Shown piece by piece: positions 7,370 through 37,086 of a stretch of 41,571 nucleotides of DNA; the first letter of the stretch is position 1; each line of letters opens with the position of its first letter. The stretch lies in the UHGV virus genome UHGV-0131723; one strand, 5' to 3'. The notes under the pieces are model-generated. The model worked only from the letters and a program-made list of their open reading frames with translations. It searched no databases and was not told where the DNA came from. Made by a program: the position numbers and the translations under genes. The DNA is from a virus.

Positions 7370-9736
7370 ATGCGCATGGTAAACGACCACGCAGAAGTGA
7401 TTAAGAGTTCAACTTCTTTAGAGACGTCTCAAGCACAGATTACAATGACACCTGAAATGTTCAGCCTTTTGAGTTCTGGTGTATATACCTTTAAAGAAAG
7501 GGCAGTGATTCGTGAACTGTCATGTAACGCAGTAGATGCTCAGAAAGAGGCTGGAAAAGAGAACATCCCATTCCATGTGCATTTACCTACTCGTTTTGAG
7601 CCTTACTTCGAAGTTCGTGATTTTGGAACTGGATTGACTCATGATAAAGTTATGAGTTTGTACCTAAACTATGGAGCTTCTACGAAGAATGACTCTAATG
7701 ACTACATTGGTGCAATGGGTATCGGCTCAAAGTCACCATTTGCAATTGCTCAGTCATTCACAGTATCTAGCTATGTTGATGGTGTTGTTAATAAGTACTC
7801 TGTTTATCTTGAGAATGGTATCCCTCAAGTAACTAAGCTGACAACTAACCCAACAAAAGAACCTAATGGTTTAGCTGTACGTGTGGCAGTTGCTGACCAC
7901 CGTATCTCAAAGTTCTTTGAAGAAGCTGGGAATGTGTACTCATACTTCACTGTAAAACCAGAAAGTAATATTGAGTACGACGATGTATTAGCAGATATGA
8001 ACGTCATTGCCCGTGAAGAAGGTGTTTATGATGCCATGATTCATAAGCACAGCTGGCGTTCTAGTGATAACAGGACAGAGTTTAATGTGGTGATGGGTAA
8101 CATTGCCTACCCTGTTAACATGGAAGCATTACTTGGTGATGATTTCTTCAAAGTATTGCCAGAATTTTTCCGTAGGAGCGTAGACCTTGTAAACATCTAC
8201 ATGCCTATTGGTTCAGTCGCTATTGCAGCTTCTCGTGAAGCATTGCAGATGAATGACACGACAAAAAATGTTATCATTGAGGCTACTAAAAAGATAACTG
8301 AAGCAATTACAAAGGATGTTATCAAGAAAGTTAACAGTCAACCTACACTCATGGATGCTGCACAGGCTTATGCTGAGTTACGTTTGAACTCACGAGAGAT
8401 GTTTAATGCTGTGTGTCCAAAGTTAGAGTGGGGAGGCGTTAAGCTTGATTCTCTGGAAGAAGAATTACTAAACATTCGTCGTGGAATTATCTACGCAGAA
8501 GACGGCTCAGTCATTTATGAACGTGACGGTAAAGGTAATATTAAGGTTGATAGGAACGGAAACAACATCCCTAAAGTAGATTATCTTTATGACCCAGTTG
8601 CTTATGTCAAGTTCAACTCTTTAGAGAGTAAGATTCGTGCAACAGCACTTTCCTACACTCAAGAGGCAAGTATGTTCAATATCTTTGGCGCAATGCGTAA
8701 AAGCCAAATTGAACAGTTTTTGTTTGTTATAAATGACCGTCGCAATAAAAATGGTACTGAGAAGACTGTAGGACGCAACCAAATCTTGCGTGGTGCATGT
8801 CGAGACTATGCCAGTGAGTCAAGTCTGTTTCACAGATACAATGGTATTGTCTTTGTATTCTCGACTGAAAAAGAGTTAGATGACTTAATCAATCTGCACA
8901 AACTTGATAAAAGCTTGTTAAAGATTGTGAAAATGTCTGATAAGGAACACCATTACCAGCGTAAAGAAGCTGTAAGAGGTGTTGTAAAACTCTGGAAAGC
9001 TGTTCCAGCAGAAGGTGTAGCCTCCTACAAAGAGGTGTCAGAGGACTTAGACACAATTGAAGAACCTCAGCTTTACATTAAGGCAATTGGTGACACAGTT
9101 GATGGTGAATGTTTTTGCTCATCTCCAGAAGATGTAGCTAAGTCAGTTGCTAATGTTACAGGTAAGACAGTCTATGTTTTCCGAAAAGCAAATTGGAAAA
9201 AGATACCAGAAGATTGGATTGAAGTAGATGAGAAACTCTTGAACGACAGCTTAACTGATGTTCACTGGATTAACCATAACAGATATATGACGCGTATCTA
9301 TATGAATGGTGTCCTTGACCTTACAAGCAGTTGGATTATTGCCAGAAACTTTACGTTTAATAACAGGAAGATTTCTCGCGGGTATTGTTATTCAAGGGAT
9401 ACAAACAAAACTATCTTCCTAGAAGGAAATGAAGAGGCTGTAGAGGCAATGTTCGGTAAAATCCAATACGTTGCTGCACCATTTGCATACACTTATACCA
9501 TTAGTGTATTGAAAACTTTGAAAGACTGTCTTGACAACGATACAAAGCTTTACAAGAAAATTAAGAAAGCTGGTGACCGTATGGTTATTAAGGTGGCAAA
9601 CTATCTTTCAAAAAGAAAACAAGAAAACTTCTTGCTTTCTCATTTAGATTGGAATAAAGTGTCACCCATCGAAGTGAGTAAGTTCTTAGGTTTTGATGTA
9701 AAATGTGTTCCAGAAGGGACTACAATTTACGATTAA
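7370..9736 (+). CDS. rIIA: rIIA-like protein (GHKL ATPase-like N-terminal domain)
   Basis: RAVIRELSCNAVDA, VRDFGTGL and SNDYIGAMGIGSKSPFA closely match the T4 rIIA N-terminus as recalled; 788 aa. Confidence 0.85.
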   Translation: MRMVNDHAEVIKSSTSLETSQAQITMTPEMFSLLSSGVYTFKERAVIRELSCNAVDAQKEAGKENIPFHVHLPTRFEPYFEVRDFGTGLTHDKVMSLYLNYGASTKNDSNDYIGAMGIGSKSPFAIAQSFTVSSYVDGVVNKYSVYLENGIPQVTKLTTNPTKEPNGLAVRVAVADHRISKFFEEAGNVYSYFTVKPESNIEYDDVLADMNVIAREEGVYDAMIHKHSWRSSDNRTEFNVVMGNIAYPVNMEALLGDDFFKVLPEFFRRSVDLVNIYMPIGSVAIAASREALQMNDTTKNVIIEATKKITEAITKDVIKKVNSQPTLMDAAQAYAELRLNSREMFNAVCPKLEWGGVKLDSLEEELLNIRRGIIYAEDGSVIYERDGKGNIKVDRNGNNIPKVDYLYDPVAYVKFNSLESKIRATALSYTQEASMFNIFGAMRKSQIEQFLFVINDRRNKNGTEKTVGRNQILRGACRDYASESSLFHRYNGIVFVFSTEKELDDLINLHKLDKSLLKIVKMSDKEHHYQRKEAVRGVVKLWKAVPAEGVASYKEVSEDLDTIEEPQLYIKAIGDTVDGECFCSSPEDVAKSVANVTGKTVYVFRKANWKKIPEDWIEVDEKLLNDSLTDVHWINHNRYMTRIYMNGVLDLTSSWIIARNFTFNNRKISRGYCYSRDTNKTIFLEGNEEAVEAMFGKIQYVAAPFAYTYTISVLKTLKDCLDNDTKLYKKIKKAGDRMVIKVANYLSKRKQENFLLSHLDWNKVSPIEVSKFLGFDVKCVPEGTTIYD

Positions 9737-9741
9737 AGTGT

Positions 9742-9771
9742 TTGACAAGGGGCTTCAAAGCCCCTTAAAAT
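9742..9771 (+). promoter_or_regulatory. Sigma70-like promoter with hairpin in spacer
   Basis: TTGACA-N18-TAAAAT; AAGGGGC..GCCCCTT hairpin lies in the spacer. Confidence 0.45.
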
Positions 9772-9815
9772 AGCATCACAAAATGATTTATTAACTAACA
9801 AGAGAGAGTAATAAG

Positions 9816-10925
9816 ATGACTACTAAAACTAAAGCACAGATTGACGCAGAAATTTACAAACTGGTTAAAGAAGGTAAGCTGACTAAAACAGCTATTGCAC
9901 AGAAATTTAATACTTCAACCCGTTCAGTCGGTCGTGCTGTAGAGCGTCATGAAGCAACCTTAAAAGGGAATAAGAAGGCAACTTCTACACCAGCTACGAA
10001 GACTTTGAAACAAGTTGCTAAGACCTTTAAGAAGAAAGCTGGAAAACCAGTTGAAAAGGTAGTTAAAGACGCTGTACAGAAAGCTCCAGTAAATAAACTG
10101 CACGAAGCTATGCAGAAAGATGACAAGATTGAGTACATGATTACTGGTGATTCTGTAATTATGACTTATGGTTCAGAATCTGAAATTGTTGAGTCTACTC
10201 ATCCGAACTATCAAGAGATTGTAGTTCATGTTGTGAAAGGTGAGTTCAAGAAAGCCTTTGAACTGATGAACATTCGTAAGTCTATCGAAAACTTCACTCA
10301 GGGTGCTATCACAATCAAAGGTGACAAGCTATTCTACGGTGCTGTTGAGATGCGTTCTACTCTGGTTGACCGTATTCTTCACATGATGAAAACTGGCGAT
10401 AAAGGTTTTGAACGACTTGTAATGTTCTTCGAAAAACTGATGGAAAACCCATCTAAAGATTCTGTAGAACAACTTTGGGGATTTGTATCTCACCTTGATG
10501 TTGAAATTGATGGAGAAGGCTACATCATTGGTTGGAAGAAAGTCTCTACTCGTGAAGGTAAGCTGGTTGACTCCCACACCTACAAAGTTCCTAACGATTT
10601 GGGTAACATTGTAGAGATGCCACGTTGGATGGTTGATAATAACCGTAACGTGACTTGCTCTCAAGGTCTTCATGTTGGTGCTTGGGATTATGTTCGTAGC
10701 TTCTCAGGTGATACAATCCTGAAAGTTCGTGTCCACCCACGAGATGTTGTATCTGTTCCAACTGATTACAATGATATGAAAATGCGTTCATCACGTTATG
10801 AAGTTGCAGCTATCGTTGATAGCCAGCGTAATGTTCTGAAAGCATGGGATGGCAAGACTGAAGCTCTACATGTTATCGTTGGTACTGCTGGCGAACTTAT
10901 TTCTCAGCATAAACGTGAAATCTAA
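9816..10925 (+). CDS. rIIB: rIIB-like protein
   Basis: MRSTLVDRILHMMKTGD and KVRVHPRDVVSVPTDYNDMKMRSSRYEV match T4 rIIB motifs as recalled; directly downstream of rIIA. Confidence 0.85.
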   Translation: MTTKTKAQIDAEIYKLVKEGKLTKTAIAQKFNTSTRSVGRAVERHEATLKGNKKATSTPATKTLKQVAKTFKKKAGKPVEKVVKDAVQKAPVNKLHEAMQKDDKIEYMITGDSVIMTYGSESEIVESTHPNYQEIVVHVVKGEFKKAFELMNIRKSIENFTQGAITIKGDKLFYGAVEMRSTLVDRILHMMKTGDKGFERLVMFFEKLMENPSKDSVEQLWGFVSHLDVEIDGEGYIIGWKKVSTREGKLVDSHTYKVPNDLGNIVEMPRWMVDNNRNVTCSQGLHVGAWDYVRSFSGDTILKVRVHPRDVVSVPTDYNDMKMRSSRYEVAAIVDSQRNVLKAWDGKTEALHVIVGTAGELISQHKREI

Positions 10926-15111: not shown

Positions 15112-15157
15112 AGGCTGCCTAACCCATTGAAAAATTTAAGGTAAGGCGGCCTTTTTC
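15112..15157 (+). terminator. Putative terminator
   Basis: AGGCTGCC...GGCGGCCT stem with long loop, followed by TTTTT. Confidence 0.45.
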
Positions 15158-15300
15158 ATTTTCAATTTGTGCAGGTATCTGTAGGGGTCTGTACAGATAT
15201 CCCAAAAAATCTCATCGCCGGATAGAAAAATCATTTTCAAAACGTGCAGACCCCGCTCAGGTCGGGCAAGAAAAATCATTTTAGAATTGTGCAGGTAGGT
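15157..15300 (+). repeat. Three copies of TCATTTT-N6-8-(T/C)GTGCAG(G/A) motif
   Basis: cattttcaatttgtgcagg, atcattttcaaaacgtgcaga, atcattttagaattgtgcagg; related copy at 10970-10982. Confidence 0.5.
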
Positions 15301-15317: not shown

Positions 15318-15352
15318 CCAACCCCTCTCCCCCTCTTACTCCCCCTCTCCCT
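15318..15352 (+). repeat. Polypyrimidine C-rich tract
   Basis: cccctctccccctcttactccccctctccct; atypical for this AT-rich genome. Confidence 0.6.
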
Positions 15353-15474
15353 AAAAGTCAAGAGAAAAATTTGTAGCGGATTGAAAAATAATTCTTGATT
15401 TGTGTTCTGTTTTGTGGTAGTCGTGTGCGCCCGTTTCATTACAGTTTTGCCAAAAATATTTTTAAAATTTTTCT

Positions 15475-15565
15475 TGACTCTTTGAGTGTGGTTATCTAAT
15501 ATTTGCATCAACGGGGAGGGAATGACCTTCCCCACTAAATAAAGTCCTAAACTGGGGATTCAAAA
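15475..15565 (+). promoter_or_regulatory. Type A cassette: promoter + 5' hairpin + RBS
   Basis: TTGACT-N17-TAATAT, then ATCAACGGGGAGGGAATGACCTTCCCCACTAAATAAAGTCCTAAACTGGGGATTC before ATG. Confidence 0.6.
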
Positions 15566-15949
15566 ATGGCTTATCGTGCACCTAAATTCATCAACAAAGA
15601 CAACTTTCGCAACGCACTGGAGAAGTCACTTGATGCAAATTTTAAAGGTAACATTATCATTGTTCACGCATTCAATTTTAAGTATGATGTAAACGGGAAT
15701 AGAATCAACCATTACACGGCAACCATGTTAGATGGTACTCTTTCAAGTGAAAAAGCCATTTTACATGCACTTGCTGGACGTGGTAAAAACCTGATAAAAT
15801 GTGATAAGAGACGTTATCAGGGTGGCGCATATGGTTATGATGATGCTGTTTATCATCTTGAAAATATGGGCTATAAAGTAGAAAAAGCTGGAGTGTCTCA
15901 AATAATCGGTAGTGATGGTTATGTAACTATCTTCAAAATTAACAAATAA
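15566..15949 (+). CDS. Hypothetical small protein (cassette array)
   Basis: ORF track; ATG after cassette RBS; C-terminus ...KINK*. Confidence 0.55.
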   Translation: MAYRAPKFINKDNFRNALEKSLDANFKGNIIIVHAFNFKYDVNGNRINHYTATMLDGTLSSEKAILHALAGRGKNLIKCDKRRYQGGAYGYDDAVYHLENMGYKVEKAGVSQIIGSDGYVTIFKINK

Positions 15950-16035
15950 AGTACTTTACAAGGGGCTTATAGTTCGATAAAGTAAGCCCCAGATAAAGAG
16001 CTTTACCACTAAATCCTAAATTGGAGAACTTAAAA
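15950..16035 (+). promoter_or_regulatory. Type B cassette: post-stop stem-loop + conserved RBS
   Basis: AAGTACTTTACA, hairpin GGGGCTTATAGTTCGATAAAGTAAGCCCC, then AGATAAAGAGCTTTACCACTAAATCCTAAATTGGAGA. Confidence 0.6.
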
Positions 16036-16329
16036 ATGGCTATTATCAAAAACGTTGTAATTACTGCAAAGACTCGTGATGACGCTCGCGTTATGGCTAA
16101 AAAGTTATGCGGGAAAGTGGTTGACAATGGAAAACAATCTGCTGTAAGGTGGGGCGTGAAGGTTGATAAACAGTTGAAGTTAAAAAATTCACCGATAAAC
16201 CTTTTTACATGTGTAAACACTATCGGGAAGACAAATGTATACACGAAAAAGGCATACATTAGACGCGTAGCATTAACATCCCCCATTCGTACAATGAGAA
16301 GTTATGCAAAGCTGAAAATTAACAAATAA
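16036..16329 (+). CDS. Hypothetical small protein (cassette array)
   Basis: ORF-track TTG start replaced by ATG at 16036 after GGAGA RBS; C-terminus ...KINK*. Confidence 0.55.
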   Translation: MAIIKNVVITAKTRDDARVMAKKLCGKVVDNGKQSAVRWGVKVDKQLKLKNSPINLFTCVNTIGKTNVYTKKAYIRRVALTSPIRTMRSYAKLKINK

Positions 16330-16416
16330 AGTACTTTACAGGGGGCTTAAAAGTTGATATCTTAAGCCCCAGATAAAGAGCTTTACCACTCAATCCTTAA
16401 ACTAGGAGATTCAAAA
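16330..16416 (+). promoter_or_regulatory. Type B cassette
   Basis: Hairpin GGGGCTTAAAAGTTGATATCTTAAGCCCC + AGATAAAGAGCTTTACCACTCAATCCTTAAACTAGGAGA. Confidence 0.6.
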
Positions 16417-16929
16417 ATGAAAACTGTAGACGCTACCTTTGAAGTTGTAAAAGAAAAATTCACCATTATTTACGAAGCTGTCAATTGTTATGAAGCAAGC
16501 CATAATCTTGATAATTGGAAGTTTACAGATGACCATCAAGGCGGCGTGACTGTTAAAAATCCTAACTGTCAGCGTAATGAATTTAAATATGCAATCCCTT
16601 TACATTACAGCCTTAAACAGCTTTCAAGTGACTATGCAAAACAAGGCCGTGAGAATCCATCGAAAGAGGCTTACACGAGCTTACAGAAAGAACTAGAAAG
16701 AGATTTAGAGGCTTCAGAGTATAACCTTGCCGCGAAAGTTGTGGATGCAAACGGTAGCACGGTTTTAGAAAGTTTTTATCTTGGTTATGCTTTCGATTGG
16801 TGCTATCGTGACGGCGATGATTTAGAGGATAGACTAAAAGAAGAGGTGAACAACGCAGACGCAGAATCTGAAGTATTAGAACGTTTGGAATCGTTGAAAG
16901 GCTCAGTGATGAATATCTTTAAGAACTAA
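16417..16929 (+). CDS. Hypothetical protein (cassette array)
   Basis: ORF track; cassette RBS. Confidence 0.55.
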   Translation: MKTVDATFEVVKEKFTIIYEAVNCYEASHNLDNWKFTDDHQGGVTVKNPNCQRNEFKYAIPLHYSLKQLSSDYAKQGRENPSKEAYTSLQKELERDLEASEYNLAAKVVDANGSTVLESFYLGYAFDWCYRDGDDLEDRLKEEVNNADAESEVLERLESLKGSVMNIFKN

Positions 16930-17021
16930 ATAGATTTCTTTACACGGGGTTATCAGACTGATAAGATAGCCCCAGATAAAGAGCTTTATTCAAATCAACC
17001 CTTAAACTAGGAGATTCTAAA
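16930..17021 (+). promoter_or_regulatory. Type B cassette (diverged copy)
   Basis: GGGGTTATCAGACTGATAAGATAGCCCC + AGATAAAGAGCTTTATTCAAATCAACCCTTAAACTAGGAGA. Confidence 0.5.
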
Positions 17022-17318
17022 ATGAAATTATCAAATAAAGTCCGTGAAAATTTAAGCAAGTTACTTAATAAAATTGATTTCATTGAAACATCAAGGAATA
17101 GTCATGATGTTATGGAATGGTTACACGGAAAAATCAAAGGCCGTCGTGTAGTGATTTGCTTATGGAACAGTTGCAGGGAGTATAAAAAACCTGTATTGCA
17201 AGTCAATATTTATGATGATACTTTTAAAAGTCCTGTAAAGTCTAAAAGCGATTTATTAGAATCCTATGAGATAACTGTAAATGGCAAAGTATCACGTAAA
17301 GAGGAAACACCATGTTAA
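17022..17318 (+). CDS. Hypothetical small protein (cassette array)
   Basis: ORF track; cassette RBS. Confidence 0.55.
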   Translation: MKLSNKVRENLSKLLNKIDFIETSRNSHDVMEWLHGKIKGRRVVICLWNSCREYKKPVLQVNIYDDTFKSPVKSKSDLLESYEITVNGKVSRKEETPC

Positions 17319-17644
17319 TGACTGGTATCACTGCAATCATTGCCATTTTCGCGCTATATAAGGCATATAAAGCCTATAATCTGGCAAGTAAGGCAATCAC
17401 ACAACAGGTTAATAATAACCTTGTAATGAGCTTTCTAGAGCGTCTCAGTGATGAGCAAATAAAGCGGCTAGAGATGAGCTTCAGATACAAAGCGAAAACC
17501 TATCAGATAAGTGACATCTTCAAAGATGATTTTCAGTTAGTTGATGATTATAATTCTCTGATAAATGCTTTAAATGTCAGTGACTTAAAAGACTACTACG
17601 CTGTAATTGTTCAAGAATTGAGCAAACGAAAACAAAACTGTTGA
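17312..17644 (+). CDS. Hypothetical small membrane protein (cassette array)
   Basis: ORF track; hydrophobic N-terminus; stop overlaps -35 of next cassette. Confidence 0.5.
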   Translation: MLMTGITAIIAIFALYKAYKAYNLASKAITQQVNNNLVMSFLERLSDEQIKRLEMSFRYKAKTYQISDIFKDDFQLVDDYNSLINALNVSDLKDYYAVIVQELSKRKQNC

Positions 17645-17732
17645 CACTGGTTTTTAGATAGATTAAATTACACATCAACGGGGAGGGAATGACCTTCCCC
17701 ACTAAATAAAGTCCTAAACTGGAGATTCCAAA
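17641..17732 (+). promoter_or_regulatory. Type A cassette
   Basis: TTGACA-N17-TAAATT, ACACATCAACGGGGAGGGAATGACCTTCCCC hairpin, GGAG RBS; ~90 bp near-identical to 18505-18597. Confidence 0.65.
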
Positions 17733-18005
17733 ATGTATACTACTAACAACGGTCGTACTTTAAATGTCACACTACGTCACTATGTAGATGGTGTCATGCA
17801 CTTTGAGGATTTACAGGCTGAAACTCATATCTTAGATTGGCAAGTAGCAGGACTCCAAAAAACTGCTACGGGATACGGTAAAAAGATTCCAACCAGTTGG
17901 AAAGTACACTACAAAGGACGTTTGCGCAGAATTTATCAGGATGTGCAAAGCAATAGCGCATCGAGTTACATTATAGTAAAAGGCAAAAAACTGCATTTAA
18001 TGTAA
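17733..18005 (+). CDS. Hypothetical small protein (cassette array)
   Basis: ORF track; cassette RBS. Confidence 0.55.
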   Translation: MYTTNNGRTLNVTLRHYVDGVMHFEDLQAETHILDWQVAGLQKTATGYGKKIPTSWKVHYKGRLRRIYQDVQSNSASSYIIVKGKKLHLM

Positions 18006-18091
18006 AGTACTTTACATGGGGCTTGGGAGTTGATATCTTAAGCCCCAGATAAAGAGCTTTACCACTCAATCCTAAATTGGAGAACTTAAAA
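18006..18091 (+). promoter_or_regulatory. Type B cassette
   Basis: GGGGCTTGGGAGTTGATATCTTAAGCCCC + AGATAAAGAGCTTTACCACTCAATCCTAAATTGGAGA. Confidence 0.6.
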
Positions 18092-18496
18092 ATGGCTATT
18101 AATAACCGTGAATTATCAACCTTAAAAGCACGTTTGACCGTTAATCGAATCAACATTATGACATCATCAGCGCCTGATGAGACACTGCACAACATTATCG
18201 GAAAGATTCAAAGCGTTATTTTAGACGTTGAAAACGTAAAAAGCTCATTGGCTGACGTTGCAGCAGGTATCACGCTAGACGGTGCGCAATATGAAATGAT
18301 TGATATGTTAGGCAAATCAAAGGTAATGAATAAAGAGCTTGATTTAAAGATGTTCCGATTTGCTGTTAAAGTATGGCTATCCGTCGAGTATGACGCTAAT
18401 TTTGCAATCGCTGATTTCTTTGCCACTTGGTTACAACGTAATTTGACAAATCACGATTTTCGTGATGTCTGTGATGCAATTTATGCAGAACTCTAA
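18092..18496 (+). CDS. Hypothetical protein (cassette array)
   Basis: ORF-track TTG start replaced by ATG at 18092. Confidence 0.55.
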   Translation: MAINNRELSTLKARLTVNRINIMTSSAPDETLHNIIGKIQSVILDVENVKSSLADVAAGITLDGAQYEMIDMLGKSKVMNKELDLKMFRFAVKVWLSVEYDANFAIADFFATWLQRNLTNHDFRDVCDAIYAEL

Positions 18497-18504
18497 AAAA
18501 TTTT

Positions 18505-18597
18505 GTTGACACTGGTTTTTAGATAGATTAAATTACACATCAACGGGGAGGGAATGACCTTCCCCACTAAATAAAGTCCTAAACTGGAGATTCCAAA
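18505..18597 (+). promoter_or_regulatory. Type A cassette
   Basis: TTGACA-N17-TAAATT + hairpin + RBS; duplicate of 17641-17732. Confidence 0.65.
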
Positions 18598-18801
18598 ATG
18601 GCTATTATTAATGGTTTAACCATTGAAACTACACACATCAAAGATATCAAAGTTGGTGATATAGTCCTTTCCCACGGCGTAGAAAAAACTGTCACTGCAA
18701 AGGATATCAAAGAGGATTCTTTCATGGGTAGGACTCTCTTCGGTGATTCTTATTGCTTAGGCTATCTTGCAGTTTTAAAAGTTGTCAAAAATAACAAATA
18801 A
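18598..18801 (+). CDS. Hypothetical small protein (cassette array)
   Basis: ORF track; cassette RBS. Confidence 0.55.
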   Translation: MAIINGLTIETTHIKDIKVGDIVLSHGVEKTVTAKDIKEDSFMGRTLFGDSYCLGYLAVLKVVKNNK

Positions 18802-18887
18802 AGTACTTTACAAGGGGCTTAAAAGTTGATAACTTAAGCCTCAGATAAAGAGCTTTACCACTAAATCCTAAACTGGAGATTCTAAAA
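18802..18887 (+). promoter_or_regulatory. Type B cassette
   Basis: GGGGCTTAAAAGTTGATAACTTAAGCCTC + AGATAAAGAGCTTTACCACTAAATCCTAAACTGGAGA. Confidence 0.6.
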
Positions 18888-19136
18888 ATGATGAACTACT
18901 TTAACATTCCCGATACCTGTAGATTATTGACACAAGAAGAAAATTTGGGTAAACCTTTCATTTACCACATGCCAGATAACACACCAAAAACTTATAGTTA
19001 CAATGTCAACCGTTTTACCGCATACGCTGCAAAGAACGGTTATAAGTTGGTCACTCAAAAAGTGATGCTGGTTACAATCGCTGACGAGGTTCCTACGGTT
19101 GCAGTTAAACTAATTTTCTCAAAGAAAGTTAAATAA
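18888..19136 (+). CDS. Hypothetical small protein (cassette array)
   Basis: ORF track; cassette RBS. Confidence 0.55.
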   Translation: MMNYFNIPDTCRLLTQEENLGKPFIYHMPDNTPKTYSYNVNRFTAYAAKNGYKLVTQKVMLVTIADEVPTVAVKLIFSKKVK

Positions 19137-19223
19137 AGTACTTTACAAGGGGCTTATAGTTCGATAAAGTAAGCCCCAGATAAAGAGCTTTACCACTAAA
19201 TCCTTAAACTAGGAGATTCAAAA
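19137..19223 (+). promoter_or_regulatory. Type B cassette
   Basis: Hairpin identical to the one at 15962-15990, then conserved RBS. Confidence 0.6.
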
Positions 19224-19766
19224 ATGAAATGCTATCACGGAACTACTCAAGAAAATTTCCTCAACCTGATTAATAACGGTGATAAACCATCAGGCGCATG
19301 GAATTGTTCGGATATGGACGGCAATTTTTACGTGTATCCAGAAAATAAAATCTATGGCGACGATGAGGAAGAAATAATCTCTGAAGGTATCCAGCAAGCT
19401 TTAGGCAATGCCACTATCACCGCAGCTTTCCAGATGAAGACACAAAATATTGTTATCCTAGAACTTGATATTCCAGAGGATGAACTAAACGATGATTATT
19501 CTTGTGATAATATGTCGAGTGTAGCAAGTTTTACAGAGTATTTTGATATAAATTGGATTAAAAAGGTCTATACAACAGAGTTTAACGCTATGTATTCACC
19601 TTTTTGTCTTCCTTCATTGGATAACCCAAATTTAAACTATCTTGATGAGACATTAGAACTACTTGCTAAAAGTGTTCAACAGTCGGACAGTATTCAGGTT
19701 TTTTGTGACATCATGGATACACTGACAGGAAACATCGCAGAAGAGGATTTAAAGGGTTTTTTCTAA
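19224..19766 (+). CDS. Hypothetical protein (cassette array)
   Basis: ORF track; cassette RBS. Confidence 0.55.
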   Translation: MKCYHGTTQENFLNLINNGDKPSGAWNCSDMDGNFYVYPENKIYGDDEEEIISEGIQQALGNATITAAFQMKTQNIVILELDIPEDELNDDYSCDNMSSVASFTEYFDINWIKKVYTTEFNAMYSPFCLPSLDNPNLNYLDETLELLAKSVQQSDSIQVFCDIMDTLTGNIAEEDLKGFF

Positions 19767-19832
19767 AAACCTATGCAATCACCTTATAAACACTATTCAG
19801 CCCCTGTAAGGGGCTTTTAAGAGGCTTAAATC

Positions 19833-20066
19833 ATGCTTACAACCATTTACCTCATCCTTTCTATTTGTAACGGTCATTCATGCGATTTTAAAGGGCTTGA
19901 GGAGTTTACAGGGAGTAAAGAAAATGCTGTTCAAGTGTGCCAGATAGCAAGGCAAGACTATCCCGCCAGTGATGATATACAATGTTACTTTAAGACAGAA
20001 GATGAAGAAGGTGTCTATTTTGACAGCGTAGATGGTCAGTATGAAATTATCATTGAAAAAGACTAG
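19833..20066 (+). CDS. Hypothetical small protein
   Basis: ORF track; preceded by GCCCCTGTAAGGGGC hairpin, not a cassette. Confidence 0.45.
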   Translation: MLTTIYLILSICNGHSCDFKGLEEFTGSKENAVQVCQIARQDYPASDDIQCYFKTEDEEGVYFDSVDGQYEIIIEKD

Positions 20067-20156
20067 ACAAGCCTGATAAAAATCTGTAAATTGTCAATCA
20101 ACGGGGAGGGAATGACCTTCCCCACTAAATAAAGTCCTAAACTGGAGAATCTAAAA
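20064..20156 (+). promoter_or_regulatory. Type A cassette
   Basis: TAGACA-N17-TAAATT + ATCAACGGGGAGGGAATGACCTTCCCC + RBS. Confidence 0.55.
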
Positions 20157-20498
20157 ATGGCTTATGTAACCGTAATTACCGATAAAGCTGGCGCATCTTG
20201 GTCAACTCAGGTCAGTGATAAGATGTCACCTATGCAGTGCCTAAAATACTTTGAACAGTGGAATAAAGGCGAGGACACAAGCCCCTTTCAAGTGATGCAG
20301 ATTATCCATGTAGACAACGAAGGGAATAAAACGACGCTGAATAGTGAGTACTATGCAAGCCGTTTTGAAACGAGAAGTAAAACAATGAAACTTTTACGTG
20401 AATCCGGTTATGCCCATATCGCCGCGTTAATCTGGGATGACCTGCTAAAAAGTCAGCGTATCAGCTATGTAAAACCTGAAAAAATATTCATCAGTTAA
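20157..20498 (+). CDS. Hypothetical protein (cassette array)
   Basis: ORF track; cassette RBS. Confidence 0.55.
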   Translation: MAYVTVITDKAGASWSTQVSDKMSPMQCLKYFEQWNKGEDTSPFQVMQIIHVDNEGNKTTLNSEYYASRFETRSKTMKLLRESGYAHIAALIWDDLLKSQRISYVKPEKIFIS

Positions 20499-20530
20499 TC
20501 AATGACTTACAAAAAACTTTTAAAAAAGTG

Positions 20531-20560
20531 TTGACAATACCCCTTGACATTGGTAACTTT
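20531..20560 (+). promoter_or_regulatory. Two closely spaced TTGACA -35-like hexamers
   Basis: TTGACA at 20531 and 20544; no convincing -10. Confidence 0.3.
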
Positions 20561-20627
20561 GTTCGAGGGGGTTTATCTAAAAGGGATTAACTTAAAAGAT
20601 TCTTTATAGATAAGCTTAAAAAATTGC

Positions 20628-20716
20628 TTGCAATCAGCTATCAAAACAAGTAAATTACTAATCAACGGGAGGGATGACCTCCCCACTAAATAAAGTCCTA
20701 AACTGGAGATTCTAAA
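20628..20716 (+). promoter_or_regulatory. Type A cassette (variant hairpin)
   Basis: TTGCAA-N17-TAAATT + ACTAATCAACGGGAGGGATGACCTCCCC + RBS. Confidence 0.6.
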
Positions 20717-21247
20717 ATGAACAAATTTCAAGCTATCAACTTCATTCGTTCAAATGCTGTAATGTCTAAGCCTGTAAAAGATACATACGAATTTCGTTGT
20801 AATGGGGTACATTTCGCAACAATCACCAAATCAGAAAACGGGGCTTATTACGTTCATCGTCGTAATGTCTCAACCGTTGTAGTCTCTCACTTTATGCAAG
20901 CTGTAGCGGAATTATTACCGTTATTCTTAGAGATTTATCTAGATGAGTGTAAAAACGTTCACAACCACGTTAAAAACCTTTTAAACGGTTATAAAATGGC
21001 TTATGAACGTTCTATCAAGTCACTAAACAAGTTTTACAATGCACCTGCAAATACTGTTTCAATGGCTTATGATGTAAACGGTGAGTTAGTTAGTCTCTTT
21101 AAAGTGGAAGAAATTAAACTGTATAATTTACGTCCTAGTGGTTACTCTAAGACTCTCGGTGAAGGTTTATCCTTCAATATCAAGAACTTAGAAAAAACTT
21201 TAAAAGACATTGAAAAAGATATTGACGAGACACTTAAAAGTCTGTAA
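20717..21247 (+). CDS. Hypothetical protein (cassette array)
   Basis: ORF track; cassette RBS. Confidence 0.55.
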   Translation: MNKFQAINFIRSNAVMSKPVKDTYEFRCNGVHFATITKSENGAYYVHRRNVSTVVVSHFMQAVAELLPLFLEIYLDECKNVHNHVKNLLNGYKMAYERSIKSLNKFYNAPANTVSMAYDVNGELVSLFKVEEIKLYNLRPSGYSKTLGEGLSFNIKNLEKTLKDIEKDIDETLKSL

Positions 21248-21313
21248 ATTGTCAATCAACGGGGAGGGAATGACCTTCCCCACTAAATAAAGTCCTAAAC
21301 TGGAGTTATCAAG
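21223..21313 (+). promoter_or_regulatory. Type A cassette
   Basis: TTGACG-N16-TAAATT inside 3' end of upstream gene + hairpin + RBS. Confidence 0.55.
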
Positions 21314-21577
21314 ATGGAAAACGTAGAATTAACCACACTTTTACAAATTGCAACCGACAAAGAAGATGTAGCATTATTTCACCGTATCGAAAGTGATTTG
21401 TTCAATGGTGAAATCATCAAAGAATCTTACGAAGTTGTCGGATTCAAAGATGGTAAAGCGTTTGGCTTTTTTGACCTCGATAAAGGCAACGCTGTTACAA
21501 AGTATGATGTTGTATCTTGTGAGATTCTTACAAAATACAACGAAAAAAGGCTTGCAACATACGCCAATATGCAGTAA
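21314..21577 (+). CDS. Hypothetical small protein (cassette array)
   Basis: ORF track; cassette RBS. Confidence 0.55.
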   Translation: MENVELTTLLQIATDKEDVALFHRIESDLFNGEIIKESYEVVGFKDGKAFGFFDLDKGNAVTKYDVVSCEILTKYNEKRLATYANMQ

Positions 21578-21643
21578 ATTACTAATCAACGGGAGGCGAT
21601 AACCTCCCCACTAAATAAAACCCTTAAACTAGGAGATTCAAAA
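21552..21643 (+). promoter_or_regulatory. Type A cassette (variant hairpin)
   Basis: TTGCAA-N17-TAAATT + ACTAATCAACGGGAGGCGATAACCTCCCC + RBS. Confidence 0.6.
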
Positions 21644-21892
21644 ATGGCAACTATCCGCGCTACTGTTAACGAGTTCGGTTTTTCCTCTCTGGATGTTAAA
21701 TTTGACATTGCAGGCACTGATAACGCCTTTGAAATGGTGAAATGTCTTATCAGTCAGACCATCAAAGACTATAATCCTTCGGATGAGTTCTGGGAGGAAA
21801 CAAAACAAGAAGTTCTCAAGGATGGTTATACTTATCACTATTGGGGAGAAAAAATCGTCTCCCTGTACTACAACAAACAAGATTATAACTAA
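21644..21892 (+). CDS. Hypothetical small protein (last cassette-array gene)
   Basis: ORF track; cassette RBS. Confidence 0.55.
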   Translation: MATIRATVNEFGFSSLDVKFDIAGTDNAFEMVKCLISQTIKDYNPSDEFWEETKQEVLKDGYTYHYWGEKIVSLYYNKQDYN

Positions 21893-21930
21893 TCGACGCA
21901 GCGGGGCTATTTAGCCCCAGATACCCTAAC

Positions 21931-21956
21931 AGCCCCTATTTAAAGGGGCTTTTTTA
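21931..21956 (+). terminator. Rho-independent terminator closing the plus-strand block
   Basis: AGCCCCT-ATTTAA-AGGGGCT + TTTTTT; preceded by a GGGGCTATTTAGCCCC hairpin. Confidence 0.65.
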
Positions 21957-22299
21957 CGTCTATCGAATCCTTATACAATCCCTTTCCCTCACCTTTCCAG
22001 AATCTTATCAGACCTTAAAAGCAATAACTCTATAGTCTACTCTATAACCTCTTATCAAATCAACTTAAATATAAGCCCATAACCCGAAAGGGAAGGGCAA
22101 CCCCTTAAACGCTCTATAACGCCCTATAACAGCCTTATCAACCTAACTTAAGGGGTTGCATTAACTCACCCTAAAAAGCCCTTCCTAGAGCTTCCCAGAG
22201 ACTTAAAAGAATCTTATAAGGGTGTAAGCTTTATCATCTCATTAGTATTCTTGTGAATAACTAAACAACCCCTTGATAGTCACTAAAAAGTATGTTATA

Positions 22300-22386
22300 G
22301 GGGCTTTAAAGTTACGTAAAAGGGGCTATAAAGTTACGTAAAAGGGGCTATAAAGTTACGTAAATGCTAGCCCCCTTAACATTTTC
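22300..22386. repeat. Four tandem copies of a 22-bp unit
   Basis: GGGGCT(T/A)TAAAGTTACGTAAAA x4, head to tail. Confidence 0.8.
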
Positions 22387-23350
22387 TTAACAATTTCTTA
22401 ACAATCCCTACATAGTTATGCTTTTAAGGCACTTGTTAGCAACTTGTTAGCCCCTTGTTAAATCTCTGTTAAAACCACGTAAAAGCCTTGTAAGAACCTT
22501 TGACATAGCCTTTAAAGCCCCTGTAAAGCCCTATAAAGAGGTATCTGTACAGTTGGGGTGTAATTACTAGGAAGAGGTTTAAAAGAGCTTACAAGGGGCT
22601 ATAGAGAGCTTTTAAGAGGTATGTTTAAAGAATCACTAAGAAAGGAAAGGGAACGATAAGGAAAGAGTAGTGACCATGTTAATAGATTGTTAAAAAGATT
22701 AAACACTTGTTAGAAACTTGTTAATTATCTTAACAAAATAACTCTTAAAAATTAACTTGTTAGCTCTTGTTAGTCATCTGTTAAGATTCTGTAAAGCCTA
22801 TTCAGCACTTGTTAGAAAACTGTTACGCTCTTGTTAGTTCTGTTAAGAATCTGTTAAGACCTTTGAAGAGATGTTAAGAAGATGTAGTAACTGTTAAGAG
22901 ATTGTTAAGGATATTTTAAAATTTTGCAAAGTACTTGTAAGGGAGCTGTTAAGGGCTACCAAGCAGATATACATCTTCTACAGATATTTTTCAGTTCCTT
23001 CAAAGACCCTAAAAAATGACTTGATAGTCCTATTTTATAAAAATTTTAAAAATCTGAATAATTACCTATACAGTCTTTCTAAAATACAGGTAATAACAGG
23101 CTTATAAGATACCTTGTTAGTACCGTGTTAGACCTTGTGAGATAAGGCCTGTAAAGATATTCCTGTTAAGTTTGTTAAAACAGTCTATATAGAGGCTTAG
23201 TAGCACCTAGTGAACACCTATAGAGAGTGTCATAGCTGACATAGAGATTAAGAGGTGTATAGGAGCTTCTAAGAGTGTATAGAGAGATGGTTAAGGTGAT
23301 TGTATAGGTTGTTAAGAAGGCTTGTTAGAGGGCTTGTTAGAAGGATTATA
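22380..23350. repeat. Dispersed short-repeat field
   Basis: More than 25 copies of (C)TTGTTA(G/A)/CTGTTAAG (some inverted as CTTAACAA), often 8-12 bp apart. Confidence 0.7.
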
Positions 23351-23535
23351 CAGAGGGGCTATTAAGACCACTAGGTAGTTACTAAGATACTATATAGTAC
23401 TATATAACTATATAGAGAGTAAGATTAAAAAGGTTGTTAAGAAGGATAGATATTTTGTTCACATATGATGGTGACCCAGAGGTTGGGACAACCGATAAAA
23501 TTTTATAAAAAATATAAATTTCGTAAATTTTACTC

Positions 23536-35772: not shown

Positions 35773-35778
35773 AACAAT

Positions 35779-36025: not shown

Positions 36026-36026
36026 T

Positions 36027-37084: not shown

Positions 37085-37086
37085 AT

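What the first reader, a model, noticed from the sequence alone, without database searches (positions are those of the whole stretch)
15475..21956. Array of 15 small ORFs separated by two classes of conserved promoter/stem-loop/RBS cassettes
Every gene between 15.5 and 21.9 kb is preceded by one of two conserved intergenic modules. Type A (7 copies) is a sigma70-like promoter (TTGACA-N17-TAAATT, often inside the upstream gene's 3' end) followed by ACA(C/T)ATCAACGGGGAGGGAATGACCTTCCCC (an 8-bp stem at the transcript 5' end) and ACTAAATAAAGTCCTAAACTGGAGATTC-ATG. Type B (6 copies) starts inside the upstream gene's last codons (...AAATAAAGTACTTTACA), has a GGGGCTTA...TAAGCCCC stem-loop without a U-tract, then AGATAAAGAGCTTTACCACTAAATCCTAAACTGGAGA-ATG. 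Both share the CCTAAACTGGAGA RBS block. Copies at 17641-17732 and 18505-18597 are near-identical over ~90 bp, and the type B hairpins at 15962-15990 and 19149-19177 are identical. This resembles the promoter-early-stem-loop cassettes proposed to drive modular shuffling in T4-type phages. The small, unrelated genes they carry are the kind of cargo that often turns out to be host-takeover or anti-defence functions.
Basis: partly seen in the sequence, partly recalled or inferred. Interest (0 to 1): 0.8.

Follow-up and report, generated by a model that had tools for sequence, protein, structure and literature searches.

The report
Repeated promoter–hairpin cassettes between phage genes
In this Felix O1-like phage, 13 of 15 small genes of unknown function each sit behind one of two repeated promoter, hairpin and ribosome-site cassettes, and related phages have gained and lost genes by recombining within these repeats, as already described for T4-like phages.

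Summary
The window comes from a Felix O1-like myovirus (Felixounavirus). Between 15474 and 21646 there are 7 type A and 6 type B cassettes, all on the + strand and found nowhere else in the 41.5 kb. They precede 13 of the 15 ORFs, not all 15.

Type A is a sigma-70-like promoter followed by a G/C hairpin about 10 nt after the -10 element, then a shared leader and ribosome-binding site. Type B also carries a promoter signature: TTTACA, 17 nt, TAnnnT, invariant in 67 distinct copies from four genera. Its spacer and flanks encode a conserved two-tier RNA hairpin of about 20 bp with no U-tract.

Both layouts match described subclasses of the T4-type promoter-early stem-loop cassettes (PeSLs). Comparison of 19 Ounavirinae genomes shows gene-plus-cassette units present or absent, and six junctions are chimeras with the crossover inside the conserved core.

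The repeats were listed as plain "direct repeats" in the Felix O1 paper and in the wV8 GenBank record, with no function assigned. Promoter activity, transcript ends and hairpin function remain inferred.

All 15 proteins lack a known family. One (f13) is 94% identical to Bas63 gp107, which is reported to be more essential on one E. coli strain than on three others.

Verdict: new member of a known kind, moderate interest.

The parts
15474..15568 (+). Type A cassette 1. -35 TTGACT at 15474-15479, -10 TAATAT at 15497-15502, hairpin at 15513-15533, leader with SD GGGG at ~15554, ATG at 15566. Drives ORF f4.
15566..15949 (+). ORF f4, 127 aa. PHROG 4495, unknown function, no Pfam family.
15947..16038 (+). 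Type B cassette 1. The upstream stop codon TAA (15947-15949) lies in the lower stem. -35 TTTACA at 15955-15960, -10 TAAAGT at 15978-15983, two-tier hairpin at 15947-16005, shared leader and SD, ATG at 16036.
16036..16329 (+). ORF f5, 97 aa. PHROG 5089, unknown function.
16327..16419 (+). Type B cassette 2. TTTACA at 16335, TG-extended -10 TATCTT at 16358-16363, hairpin at 16327-16385, ATG at 16417.
16417..16929 (+). ORF f6, 170 aa. PHROG 4190, unknown function.
16929..17024 (+). Type B cassette 3, the divergent copy. TTTACA at 16939, TG-extended -10 TAAGAT at 16962-16967. Hairpin at 16929-16990, with the upper stem changed to GGGGTTATC/GATAGCCCC but still paired. ATG at 17022.
17022..17644 (+). 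ORFs f7 (17022-17318, 98 aa) and f8 (17312-17644, 110 aa). They overlap by 7 nt and f8 has no cassette of its own. The f8 stop codon TGA lies inside the next -35 hexamer, TTGACA.
17641..17735 (+). Type A cassette 2. TTGACA-N17-TAAATT, hairpin at 17680-17700, ATG at 17733. Identical to cassette 3 over 97 bp.
17733..18005 (+). ORF f9, 90 aa. PHROG 3436, unknown function.
18002..18094 (+). Type B cassette 4. TTTACA at 18011, TG-extended -10 TATCTT at 18034-18039, hairpin at 18002-18062 (most stable of the six copies; the 95-nt cassette RNA folds at -35.3 kcal/mol, the 66-nt hairpin segment at -32.6), ATG at 18092.
18092..18496 (+). ORF f10, 134 aa. PHROG 4327, unknown function.
18506..18600 (+). 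Type A cassette 3. TTGACA-N17-TAAATT, hairpin at 18545-18565, ATG at 18598.
18598..18801 (+). ORF f11, 67 aa. PHROG 3623. Absent from several relatives.
18799..18890 (+). Type B cassette 5. TTTACA at 18807, TG-extended -10 TAACTT at 18830-18835, hairpin at 18799-18857, ATG at 18888.
18888..19136 (+). ORF f12, 82 aa. PHROG 9030. Present in only 11 of the 19 loci compared.
19134..19226 (+). Type B cassette 6. TTTACA at 19142, -10 TAAAGT at 19165-19170, hairpin at 19134-19192, ATG at 19224. Identical to cassette B1 over 74 bp.
19224..19766 (+). ORF f13, 180 aa. 94% identical to Bas63 gp107. Weak resemblance to the ADP-ribosyltransferase / RNA 2'-phosphotransferase fold.
19833..20066 (+). ORF f14, 77 aa. 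No cassette. Preceded by the hairpin GCCCCTGTAAGGGGC plus TTTT at 19800-19822. Its stop codon TAG forms the first three bases of the next -35 hexamer, TAGACA.
20064..20159 (+). Type A cassette 4. TAGACA-N17-TAAATT, hairpin at 20103-20123, ATG at 20157.
20157..20498 (+). ORF f15, 113 aa. PHROG 4318, unknown function.
20628..20719 (+). Type A cassette 5. TTGCAA-N17-TAAATT, 6-bp hairpin GGGAGG/CCTCCC at 20667-20684, ATG at 20717.
20717..21247 (+). ORF f16, 176 aa. PHROG 4725. Its stop codon TAA forms the first three bases of the next -10 hexamer, TAAATT.
21222..21316 (+). Type A cassette 6. TTGACG-N17-TAAATT, hairpin at 21261-21281, ATG at 21314.
21314..21577 (+). ORF f17, 87 aa. PHROG 7022. Present in 13 of the 19 loci compared.
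21552..21646 (+). Type A cassette 7. TTGCAA-N17-TAAATT, 6-bp hairpin GGGAGG..CCTCCC at 21591-21609, ATG at 21644.
21644..21892 (+). ORF f18, 82 aa. PHROG 4559. Last gene of the block.
21931..21960 (+). The only canonical intrinsic terminator in the block: AGCCCCTATTTAAAGGGGCT followed by TTTTTT. It corresponds to Felix O1 terminator t23.

Best explanation
The block is the accessory small-gene region of a Felix O1-like phage. It is presumably expressed early, and most genes in it carry their own portable expression cassette of the promoter-early stem-loop (PeSL) kind.

Type A is a host sigma-70 promoter. It has an A-rich stretch upstream, a -35 hexamer of TTGACA type, a 17-nt spacer and the -10 hexamer TAAATT. 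It often overlaps the last codons or the stop codon of the upstream gene. Its transcript is predicted to start in or just before ATCAAC. The 6-8 bp G/C hairpin would then sit a few nucleotides from the 5' end, where it most likely protects the mRNA from 5'-end-dependent decay. An unstructured A-rich leader and a GGAG ribosome-binding site about 8 nt from the ATG follow.

Type B is a second, weaker-looking sigma-70 promoter: TTTACA, 17 nt, TAnnnT, often with a TG extension. Its spacer and flanks also encode a two-tier hairpin of about 20 bp. That hairpin contains the upstream stop codon and lacks a U-tract. It can form only on read-through RNA from upstream promoters. There it most likely attenuates or insulates transcription, or acts as a processing and 3'-stabilising site.

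Both classes end in the same leader and ribosome-binding block. The 60-100 bp cores are repeated 13 times in direct orientation, so they act as substrates for homologous recombination. Crossovers between cassettes delete, insert or swap gene-plus-cassette units without breaking expression signals.

Shown here: the repeats, the conservation patterns, the predicted folds, the gene-content differences and the chimeric junctions. Inferred: promoter activity, transcription start sites, early timing, and what each hairpin does.
For: The repeats are real, exceed chance expectation and are confined to one block and one strand.

Type A hexamers and the 17-nt spacing are kept at every slot and in three genera, while the spacers differ. 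All 37 distinct A hairpin variants still form a hairpin, mostly with stems of 5-8 bp.

Type B was examined in 67 distinct copies from four genera. CTTTACA is invariant. T33, A34 and T38 (TAnnnT) are invariant, while the three middle bases and the neighbouring loop bases vary. There are 12 different hexamers, and TG sits at -15/-14 in 38 of 67 copies.

RNAalifold and single-sequence folding independently give the same two-tier hairpin. In the named structure 95.8% of cells are paired, against 32-56% in the slid controls. There are GC-to-UA double changes at two pairs, and frequent G-U pairs that fit only the + strand RNA.

A consensus-like promoter with a hairpin in its spacer also lies between rIIA and rIIB.

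The PeSL paper describes exactly these layouts: the stem-loop between -35 and -10 or overlapping -10, or downstream of -10, in a cassette that runs from the upstream stop codon to the SD and ATG.

Gene maps of 19 loci show unit-wise presence and absence, and different cargo in one slot. Six junctions are clean chimeras with the crossover in the conserved core. The two ribosome-binding-site alleles assort independently of the promoter part and of the gene.

The block has only one canonical terminator, at its end. In Felix O1 RT-PCR, ORFs 16, 20, 21 and 22 (within the block) and ORF 13 (the macro-domain gene just upstream) peaked at 5 min.
Against: There are no transcript data. No transcription start, transcript end or promoter strength has been measured for any Felix O1-like phage in the literature I could search.

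The Felix O1 RT-PCR puts four other block ORFs (14, 17, 19, 23) at 25 min, and timing does not follow cassette type.

Covariation in the hairpins is modest: few pairs vary and the copies are related. The shuffle control can therefore be exceeded without any structure.

Parts of the type B promoter signature overlap paired positions: T38 is in the upper stem and TTTA is in the lower stem.

The direction of each indel, gain or loss, is not known.
Confidence: 0.75

Rival explanations
1. Type B is not a promoter. It is purely an intercistronic RNA element on a polycistronic early transcript: a T7-style RNase III processing site or a 3'-end stabiliser. On this view transcription comes only from the type A promoters.
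For: The fold is a two-tier stem of about 20 bp with a 3x3 internal loop and no U-tract, placed between cistrons. It is predicted by two methods and is 95.8% paired across 67 copies. The G-U pairs indicate function in + strand RNA. The 3' lower-stem strand, AGATAAAGAGCTTTA, is almost invariant. The resemblance to T7 RNase III sites (upper stem, internal loop, lower stem) comes from my own knowledge of Dunn and Studier 1983 and was not tested here.
Against: T33 and A34 sit in the apical loop and are invariant, although the other loop positions vary freely. They lie exactly 17 nt after an invariant TTTACA, and 38 of 67 copies have TG at -15/-14. A structure-only element would not need this. PeSLs with the same layout had promoter activity in reporter assays.
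Confidence: 0.2
2. The hairpins are transcription terminators or attenuators that insulate each gene, as several GenBank annotators labelled the type A hairpin and as was shown for one PeSL stem-loop.
For: The ASO1A, KhF1, XTG1 and KhF3 records call the type A hairpin a rho-independent terminator. One PeSL stem-loop reduced lacZ expression as strongly as the rrnB T1 terminator.
Against: No cassette hairpin is followed by a T-run, and the scan finds one canonical terminator in 7.5 kb, at the end of the block. The type A hairpin lies downstream of its own promoter, so a strong terminator there would silence the gene it precedes.
Confidence: 0.15
3. The conserved 12-nt motifs that flank the type B stem (TAAAGTACTTTA and TAAAGAGCTTTA, each a near-palindrome) are operators for a phage regulator. 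That regulator would switch these promoters off, or on, later in infection.
For: The motifs cover the -35 region and roughly +5 to +16 of the putative promoter, and they are nearly invariant across genera. How Felix O1 regulates timing is unknown.
Against: When G6 changes to T in the 5' motif, its within-motif partner C9 does not change. The base in the other motif (column 56) does change, from C to A, in 7 copies. The constraint is therefore pairing between the two motifs, not two separate palindromes. No candidate regulator was identified.
Confidence: 0.08
4. The repeats are selfish miniature mobile elements (MITE-like or REP-like) that spread through intergenic DNA and have no role in expression.
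For: They are short, repeated, hairpin-containing intergenic elements.
Against: All copies have one orientation, lie in one block, and sit at a fixed distance from a start codon. They carry the ribosome-binding site of the gene and overlap upstream stop codons. Complete relatives have no copies outside the block: the copy counts per record equal the counts within the block.
Confidence: 0.02

Closest known systems
PeSLs (promoter-early stem-loop cassettes) of T4-type phages RB49/phi1, T4/PST and KVP40/nt-1 (Arbiol et al. 2010, PMC2839356; Comeau et al. 2014, PMC4122927)
   Same: Both are composite cassettes that run from the upstream stop codon to the downstream SD and ATG. Both have a sigma-70-like promoter with an AT-rich upstream stretch and a GGGG...CCCC stem-loop. 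The stem-loop lies between -35 and -10 or overlaps -10 (as in type B), or lies downstream of -10 (as in type A). Both are concentrated in an ORFan-rich variable region, and indels between relatives have crossovers inside the cassettes (searches compared with 66-68).
   Different: The phage lineage differs: Ounavirinae, about 88 kb, not T4-like. There are only two tightly conserved sequence classes, with up to 97 bp of exact identity. The type A hairpin lies in the transcribed leader rather than before the start site. Type B has an extra lower stem that makes a hairpin of about 20 bp. All cassettes share one leader and ribosome-binding block. Promoter and terminator activity and mini-circle formation were shown experimentally for PeSLs but not here.
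T7 early region: host-RNAP promoters A1-A3 with RNase III sites between early genes (own knowledge: Dunn and Studier 1983)
   Same: Host-polymerase early transcription of small accessory genes. Conserved intercistronic hairpins with an upper stem, internal loop and lower stem and no U-tract.
   Different: T7 has promoters only at the left end and none inside the hairpins. RNase III cleavage is proven in T7 and untested here. No sequence similarity was assessed.
SPO1 host-takeover module (own knowledge: Stewart et al. 1998)
   Same: A dense array of small early genes, many with their own strong host-type promoter and strong ribosome-binding site.
   Different: Different host and phage family. 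It is not described as repeated near-identical cassettes that act as recombination substrates.
5'-terminal stabilising stem-loops such as the ompA 5' UTR hairpin (own knowledge: Emory, Bouvet and Belasco 1992)
   Same: A stable hairpin within a few nucleotides of the predicted mRNA 5' end, as in type A.
   Different: The transcription start is only predicted here, and no half-life data exist.
'Direct repeats' listed for Felix O1 (Whichard et al. 2010, PMC3185647) and DR_1 to DR_9 in the wV8 GenBank record
   Same: These are the same sequences. The 57-bp repeat is the type B core and the 39-bp repeat is the type A promoter.
   Different: They were reported as repeats only, with no promoter, RNA-structure or recombination role assigned. 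The type A promoters were not among the five promoters listed for Felix O1.

Membership tests
PeSL-type regulatory cassette | Sigma-70-like -35 and -10 hexamers at 16-18 nt spacing with an AT-rich upstream stretch | tested here: met
   All 7 type A and all 6 type B copies have them, with 17-nt spacing. They are conserved at every slot in 19 loci.
PeSL-type regulatory cassette | A stable G/C stem-loop inside or next to the promoter (between -35 and -10, overlapping either box, upstream, or downstream of -10) | tested here: met
   In type B the stem-loop lies in the spacer and overlaps -10. In type A it starts 9-10 nt after -10.
PeSL-type regulatory cassette | The cassette spans the upstream stop codon to the downstream SD and start codon | tested here: met
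   Stop codons lie in the type B lower stem, or in the type A -35 or -10 hexamers. A shared SD block lies about 8 nt from the ATG.
PeSL-type regulatory cassette | Preferential location in a variable region rich in ORFans | tested here: met
   All copies lie in one 6.2-kb block. All 15 ORFs lack a Pfam family and each falls in a PHROG of unknown function.
PeSL-type regulatory cassette | Indels and replacements between relatives have breakpoints inside the cassettes | tested here: met
   Six chimeric junctions were found: KhF3, Seyj1, Felix O1 (two), ASO1A, and the window itself. One slot holds different cargo in different phages.
PeSL-type regulatory cassette | Demonstrated promoter and terminator activity, and excised mini-circles | not testable with these tools
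   This needs reporter assays and inverse PCR on infected cells.
PeSL-type regulatory cassette | Occurrence in T4-like phages, the lineage in which the family was defined | tested here: not met
   The window is a Felixounavirus (Ounavirinae). This is a lineage criterion, not a functional one.
Intrinsic (rho-independent) terminator | A G/C hairpin followed directly by a U-rich tract | tested here: not met
   No cassette hairpin passes the scan. Only 21931-21950 does.
T7-type RNase III processing site | An irregular hairpin of about 20 bp with an internal loop, located between cistrons | tested here: met
   Lower stem of 11-12 bp, a 3x3 internal loop and an upper stem of 9 bp in all six type B copies.
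T7-type RNase III processing site | Cleavage by host RNase III in vivo or in vitro | not testable with these tools
   This needs a comparison of rnc mutant and wild-type hosts, or an in vitro cleavage assay.
Curated RNA families (Rfam 15) | A match to a covariance model at or near its gathering score | tested here: not met
   The only hit was a chance-level one (E 0.93) outside the cassettes.

The most novel reading that the evidence does not exclude
Type B is a truly dual-coded element. The same roughly 60 bp would act as a promoter on DNA and, on read-through RNA, as a specific RNase III-type processing or insulating hairpin. Together with type A it would form a subfamily-wide standard expression socket, conserved in design from the Salmonella, Escherichia and Citrobacter phages to the Erwinia phages. 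Such a socket would let any small gene be plugged in, removed or moved by homologous recombination during co-infection.
Probability: 0.3. Interest if true: 0.6.

Novelty: new member of a known kind. Interest (0 to 1): 0.45.

Why it matters
PeSL-mediated modular shuffling has so far been documented only in T4-like phages. Finding the same design in the unrelated Felix O1-like subfamily, with clean recombinant junctions, suggests it is a general way for virulent phages to keep a swappable set of accessory genes.

Felix O1-like phages are widely used for Salmonella typing and biocontrol, yet how they regulate transcription is described as unknown. More than 250 sequenced relatives provide a ready natural experiment.

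The cassettes give concrete predicted early promoters and transcript ends to test. They also offer natural safe sites for engineering these phages. They define the accessory genes that are worth screening for host-takeover or anti-defence roles. One of these, f13 (Bas63 gp107), already has a reported host-dependent fitness effect.

Tried and rejected
1. Rfam scan of 14.9-23.7 kb at a permissive threshold: no family matches the cassettes.

2. Terminator reading: rejected, because no T-run follows any cassette hairpin.

3. T4 MotA-box reading. GCTTTA followed 11 nt later by TAAACT, downstream of the type B hairpin, resembles a T4 middle promoter. I rejected this because the start site would fall after the SD, and the motif is better explained as the lower-stem strand.

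4. Reading the two type B flanking motifs as separate palindromic operators: disfavoured by the covariation between the motifs.

5. Selfish MITE-like or REP-like repeats: rejected on orientation, fixed position and confinement to the block.

6. Protein function. Pfam gave nothing for all 15 ORFs. Each PHROG is of unknown function. Sequence search against PDB chains for 7 ORFs gave nothing.

8. Literature searches for a Felix O1-like transcriptome, mapped start sites, or any paper linking PeSLs to Felix O1-like phages found none. The wV8 paper, the Moogle and Michonne announcements, and a Felixounavirus comparative paper do not discuss the repeats.

9. The Felix O1 RT-PCR timing classes do not separate A-driven from B-driven genes.

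Full report
IDENTITY OF THE WINDOW. Megablast of 15400-22000 finds 256 phage records. Nine cover at least 80% of the query at about 89-96% identity, and all are Felix O1-like myoviruses (Felixounavirus; best hits ECML-1, KhF1/KhF2 and LMP25). The window also carries an rIIA-sized and an rIIB-sized ORF (788 and 369 aa), a macro-domain "phosphatase" and a 25-tRNA cluster, as Felix O1 does. The flagged block corresponds to Felix O1 ORFs 14-23. It ends at the terminator that the Felix O1 paper calls t23.

CHECK OF THE OBSERVATION.

- Type A has 7 copies, with -35 hexamers at 15474, 17641, 18506, 20064, 20628, 21222 and 21552.
- Type B has 6 copies, with TTTACA at 15955, 16335, 16939, 18011, 18807 and 19142.
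- A 52-nt A core matches 5 times and a 19-nt B core 6 times, at up to 3 mismatches. Zero matches occur in 100 dinucleotide-preserving shuffles.
- The shared CCTAAACTGGAGA block matches 10 times against 1.1 expected.
- Profiles built from about 100 A and about 90 B copies of related phages, run on both strands of all 41.5 kb, give full-length hits only at 15.4-21.7 kb, all on the + strand.
- The pairs called "near-identical" are exact: 17639-17735 equals 18504-18600 (97 bp), and 15944-16017 equals 19131-19204 (74 bp).

One correction concerns coverage: 13 of the 15 ORFs have a cassette. ORF 17312-17644 overlaps its upstream neighbour, and ORF 19833-20066 follows a different hairpin.

ANATOMY OF TYPE A. 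Every copy has an A-rich stretch, a -35 hexamer (TTGACA, TTGACT, TTGACG, TTGCAA or TAGACA) and exactly 17 nt. Then come a -10 hexamer (TAAATT, or TAATAT in the first copy) and 9-10 nt ending in ATCAAC. A G/C hairpin follows, of 8 bp in five copies and 6 bp in two. The cassette ends with ACTAAATAAAGTCCTAAACTGGAGA, about 8 nt of spacer and the ATG.

The promoter is packed into the upstream gene:
- The f8 stop codon TGA lies inside TTGACA.
- The f14 stop codon TAG forms the start of TAGACA.
- The f16 and f17 stop codons TAA form the start of TAAATT.

Across 19 related loci the hexamers and the spacing are kept at every slot, while the spacers differ between slots. All 37 distinct hairpin variants still form a hairpin, mostly with stems of 5-8 bp. 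If transcription starts the usual ~7 nt after the -10 hexamer, the hairpin lies about 3-5 nt from the 5' end. That is the arrangement of 5'-stabilising hairpins such as the one in ompA mRNA (my own knowledge; inference). There is no T-run after the hairpin. The "rho-independent terminator" label that several GenBank records give it is therefore unlikely to be right.

ANATOMY OF TYPE B. I aligned 67 distinct copies of the 62-nt core (alignment A1). They come from Felixounavirus, Mooglevirus, Suspvirus and the Erwinia phage Panisse (Kolesnikvirus). Two overlapping signals appear.

The first is a sigma-70 promoter signature. CTTTACA is invariant. Exactly 17 nt later, T33, A34 and T38 are invariant, whereas the three bases between them and the neighbouring loop positions vary. 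There are 12 different hexamers, all TAnnnT, and TG sits at -15/-14 in 38 of 67 copies. The generic scan also flags five of the six window copies as TTTACA-N17-TAnnnT, three of them with the TG extension.

The second is an RNA structure. RNAalifold on the alignment and single-sequence folding of all six window copies give the same two-tier hairpin. The lower stem pairs TAAAGTACTTTA with TAAAGAGCTTTA, there is a 3x3 internal loop, and the upper stem is GGGGCTTA(T)/(A)TAAGCCCC. For the ~95-nt cassette RNAs, folding energies are -21.5 to -35.3 kcal/mol and z-scores are -3.5 to -5.7.

Counting pairs on the named structure gives 95.8% of cells paired. When the 3' partners are slid by 1-3 columns, the figure falls to 32-56%. 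No shuffle out of 500 reaches the observed percentage paired or covariation score. GC-to-UA double changes occur at column pair 6-56 (7 copies) and at pair 19-43 (4 copies, the Erwinia phage). Many pairs are G-U, which pair only in + strand RNA. This points to a function in the sense transcript.

The covariation is modest and the copies are related, so I rate the structure as well supported but not proven. The upstream stop codon lies in the lower stem. A transcript started from the B promoter itself would begin in the 3' arm, so the hairpin can form only on read-through RNA from upstream.

A further promoter with a hairpin in its spacer lies between the rIIA-like and rIIB-like ORFs, outside the block: TTGACA-AGGGGCTTCAAAGCCCCT-TAAAAT at 9742-9771. 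The layout therefore recurs in this genome.

COMPARISON WITH PeSLs. Arbiol et al. define PeSLs as cassettes that begin with the upstream stop codon in an AT-rich stretch. They contain a sigma-70-like promoter and a stem-loop, often polyG...polyC, and end with the SD and start codon. The stem-loop lies most often between -35 and -10 or overlapping -10. It can also lie upstream of -35 or downstream of -10. Type B is the commonest PeSL layout and type A is close to the last one.

In RB49/phi1 the promoter and the stem-loop were active in lacZ assays. Indels mapped to recombination between PeSLs, and mini-circles were detected. No paper in the searchable library mentions PeSLs together with Felix O1-like phages.

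The repeats themselves were noticed before. The Felix O1 genome paper lists a 57-bp repeat (the B core) and a 39-bp repeat (the A promoter) among "direct repeats", without interpretation. It states that temporal regulation is unknown and does not include these promoters in its promoter list. The wV8 GenBank record marks them DR_1 to DR_9, but the wV8 paper does not discuss them.

DO THE CASSETTES MEDIATE GENE SHUFFLING? I called + strand ORFs, clustered their products, and mapped the cassettes in the window and 18 related loci. Within Felixounavirus the gene order is collinear, but gene-plus-cassette units come and go:
- f23-f24 is present in KhF1, XTG1, KhF3, ASO1A and Seyj1 and absent from the window.
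- f4 is absent from ASO1A.
- f12 is found in 11 of 19 loci and f17 in 13 of 19.
- f15 and f16 are absent from KhF3.
- Felix O1 lacks f4, f5, f11-f14 and f17.

The slot between f14 and f15 holds different cargo in different phages: f47 in wV8, f52 in SUSP1, f23 plus f52 in Mordin, f38/f39 in SflM004 and f29 in Seyj1. Gene f23 sits at the start of the block in Felixounavirus but between f14 and f15 in Mordin. The Erwinia phage has a different gene order.

Three-way alignments of six junctions are clean chimeras. The left flank matches one parental cassette, the right flank matches the other, and the switch lies inside the identical core. The junctions are:
- KhF3 f14|f17
- Seyj1 f11|f13
- Felix O1 f10|f15
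- Felix O1 f16|f18
- ASO1A f24|f5
- the window's own A|f4 junction, compared with KhF1 A|f23...f24-B|f4. Here an A and a B cassette recombined within the shared ribosome-binding block.

In addition, the two ribosome-binding-site alleles (TAAACTGGAG and TTAAACTAGGAG) occur with the same promoter part and the same downstream gene in different phages. At slot f15-to-f16, for example, the split is 5 to 5. This indicates frequent exchange within cassettes. It is direct comparative evidence for recombination between cassettes, although whether each event was a gain or a loss is unknown.

DISTRIBUTION. Single-cassette blastn finds type A in 249 phage records and type B in 289. These are Felixounavirus, Mooglevirus and Suspvirus, with type B also in Erwinia Kolesnikvirus. 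Copy counts per complete genome equal the counts inside the block: KhF1 has 7 A, wV8 has 5 B, and Felix O1 has 4 A and 3 B. The cassettes are therefore confined to this block genome-wide.

In the Erwinia phage Panisse the homologous block has its own cassette classes, again with hairpins in or over promoter-like hexamers. It also has its own common leader, AACAACCCTTATAAAGGAATCAAAAATG, in 9 copies. The design is conserved even where the sequence is not.

TRANSCRIPTION MODEL (INFERENCE). There is one canonical intrinsic terminator, at 21931-21950 plus a T-run, and a weaker hairpin with TTTT after f13 that is annotated as a terminator in wV8. The block is therefore probably transcribed rightward from up to 13 promoters as a nested set of transcripts with a common 3' end.

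On read-through RNA the type B hairpins may attenuate transcription, as one PeSL stem-loop did. Alternatively they may be cut or may stabilise 3' ends, as RNase III sites do in the T7 early region (own knowledge). These options cannot be separated here.

The Felix O1 end-point RT-PCR places block ORFs 16, 20, 21 and 22, and ORF 13 just upstream of the block, at 5 min. It places block ORFs 14, 17, 19 and 23 at 25 min. The assay is crude and also places some structural genes at 5 min. It gives weak support for early expression and none for a difference between A and B.

THE CARGO. None of the 15 proteins has a Pfam family, and each falls in its own PHROG of unknown function. Seven have no sequence relative among PDB chains.

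f13 is 94% identical to Bas63 gp107. A knockout-library preprint reports g107 as more essential on E. coli S17-1 than on three other strains. It notes the same resemblance to the NAD-binding domain of RNA 2'-phosphotransferase. It also describes the surrounding region as small hypothetical genes of varying essentiality. The "accessory, condition-dependent" reading of the cargo therefore has one experimental data point. An anti-defence role is untested.

VERDICT.
- Type B is probably a promoter as well.
- The type B hairpin is two-tiered.
- Only 13 of the 15 genes are covered.

The element meets every testable defining feature of PeSL-type cassettes except the phage lineage, so I file it as a new member of a known kind. 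Interest is moderate. A specialist would not be surprised, and the repeats were already on record. The finding does extend a mechanism known only from T4-like phages to another subfamily, with unusually clean recombinant junctions. It also makes the unknown transcription programme of Felix O1-like phages directly testable.

Noticed in passing
window 9736-9816 (between the 788-aa rIIA-like and 369-aa rIIB-like ORFs): TTGACA-AGGGGCTTCAAAGCCCCT-TAAAAT is a near-consensus promoter with a GGGGCTT/AAGCCCC hairpin inside its 18-nt spacer. This is the same hairpin-in-spacer layout as type B, but outside the block and without the shared leader.
   Followed up: partly
window ~21960-23460: About 1.5 kb without ORFs, packed with short repeats. 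These include a 22-bp unit AGGGGCTATAAAGTTACGTAAA in 3 copies (22299-22364), CTTAACAATTT in 2.8 copies, and dozens of TTGTTAG / CTGTTAAG motifs. It may be an origin, a packaging site or a regulatory region. Several of the GenBank records seen here are opened within a few kb of the block.
   Followed up: partly
window 15150-15300; Panisse locus L017 3595-3745: Three copies of GAAAAATCATTTTCAA..TTGTGCAGGTA lie between the upstream terminator and the first type A promoter. The Erwinia phage has four copies of a similar TTTTTCATTTTCAATTTGTGCATAG unit at the same relative place, so the motif is conserved across genera. Its function is unknown. A polypyrimidine run, CCCCTCTCCCCCTCTTACTCCCCCTCTCCC, follows at 15323-15352.
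   Followed up: no
[not shown]
   Followed up: partly
window 20499-20716: A 220-bp gap before the fifth type A cassette holds another promoter-like site, TTGACA-N17-TAACTT at 20531, overlapped by a CCCCT...AGGGG inverted repeat. ASO1A annotates a promoter and a terminator in the corresponding gap.
   Followed up: no
window 15936-15949, 16316-16329, 18788-18801, 20053-20066, 21211-21227: The repeats extend into coding sequence, so unrelated proteins share C-terminal residues encoded by cassette DNA. Genes before type B cassettes end in ...K(I/N)NK. f14 ends in ...IEKD, and f16 has IEKD followed by IDETLKSL. Recombination in the cassettes would therefore also swap the last few codons.
   Followed up: partly
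locus L017 (Erwinia phage Panisse) 4300-10550: The homologous block of this distant genus has at least three cassette classes of its own. These are type B homologues (4 copies), a TTGCAA...GGGGTTA..TAACCCC class (3 copies), and TTGACA-N18-TAAAAT with a GAGGGG/CCCCTC hairpin over the -10 hexamer followed by ATCAAC or ATCGAC (2 copies). All feed into one common leader present in 9 copies.
   Followed up: partly
window 33206-38360: A cluster of 25 tRNA genes on the + strand, as is typical of Felix O1-like phages.
   Followed up: no
loci L002, L004, L005 (KhF1, XTG1, KhF3) and L001 (ASO1A): Public annotations label the type A leader hairpin a rho-independent terminator, and in KhF1, XTG1 and KhF3 they place it on the minus strand. 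It lies directly downstream of a promoter and lacks a T-run, so this is probably a systematic mis-annotation. Many of the small ORFs are also not annotated in the KhF and ECML-1 records.
   Followed up: partly
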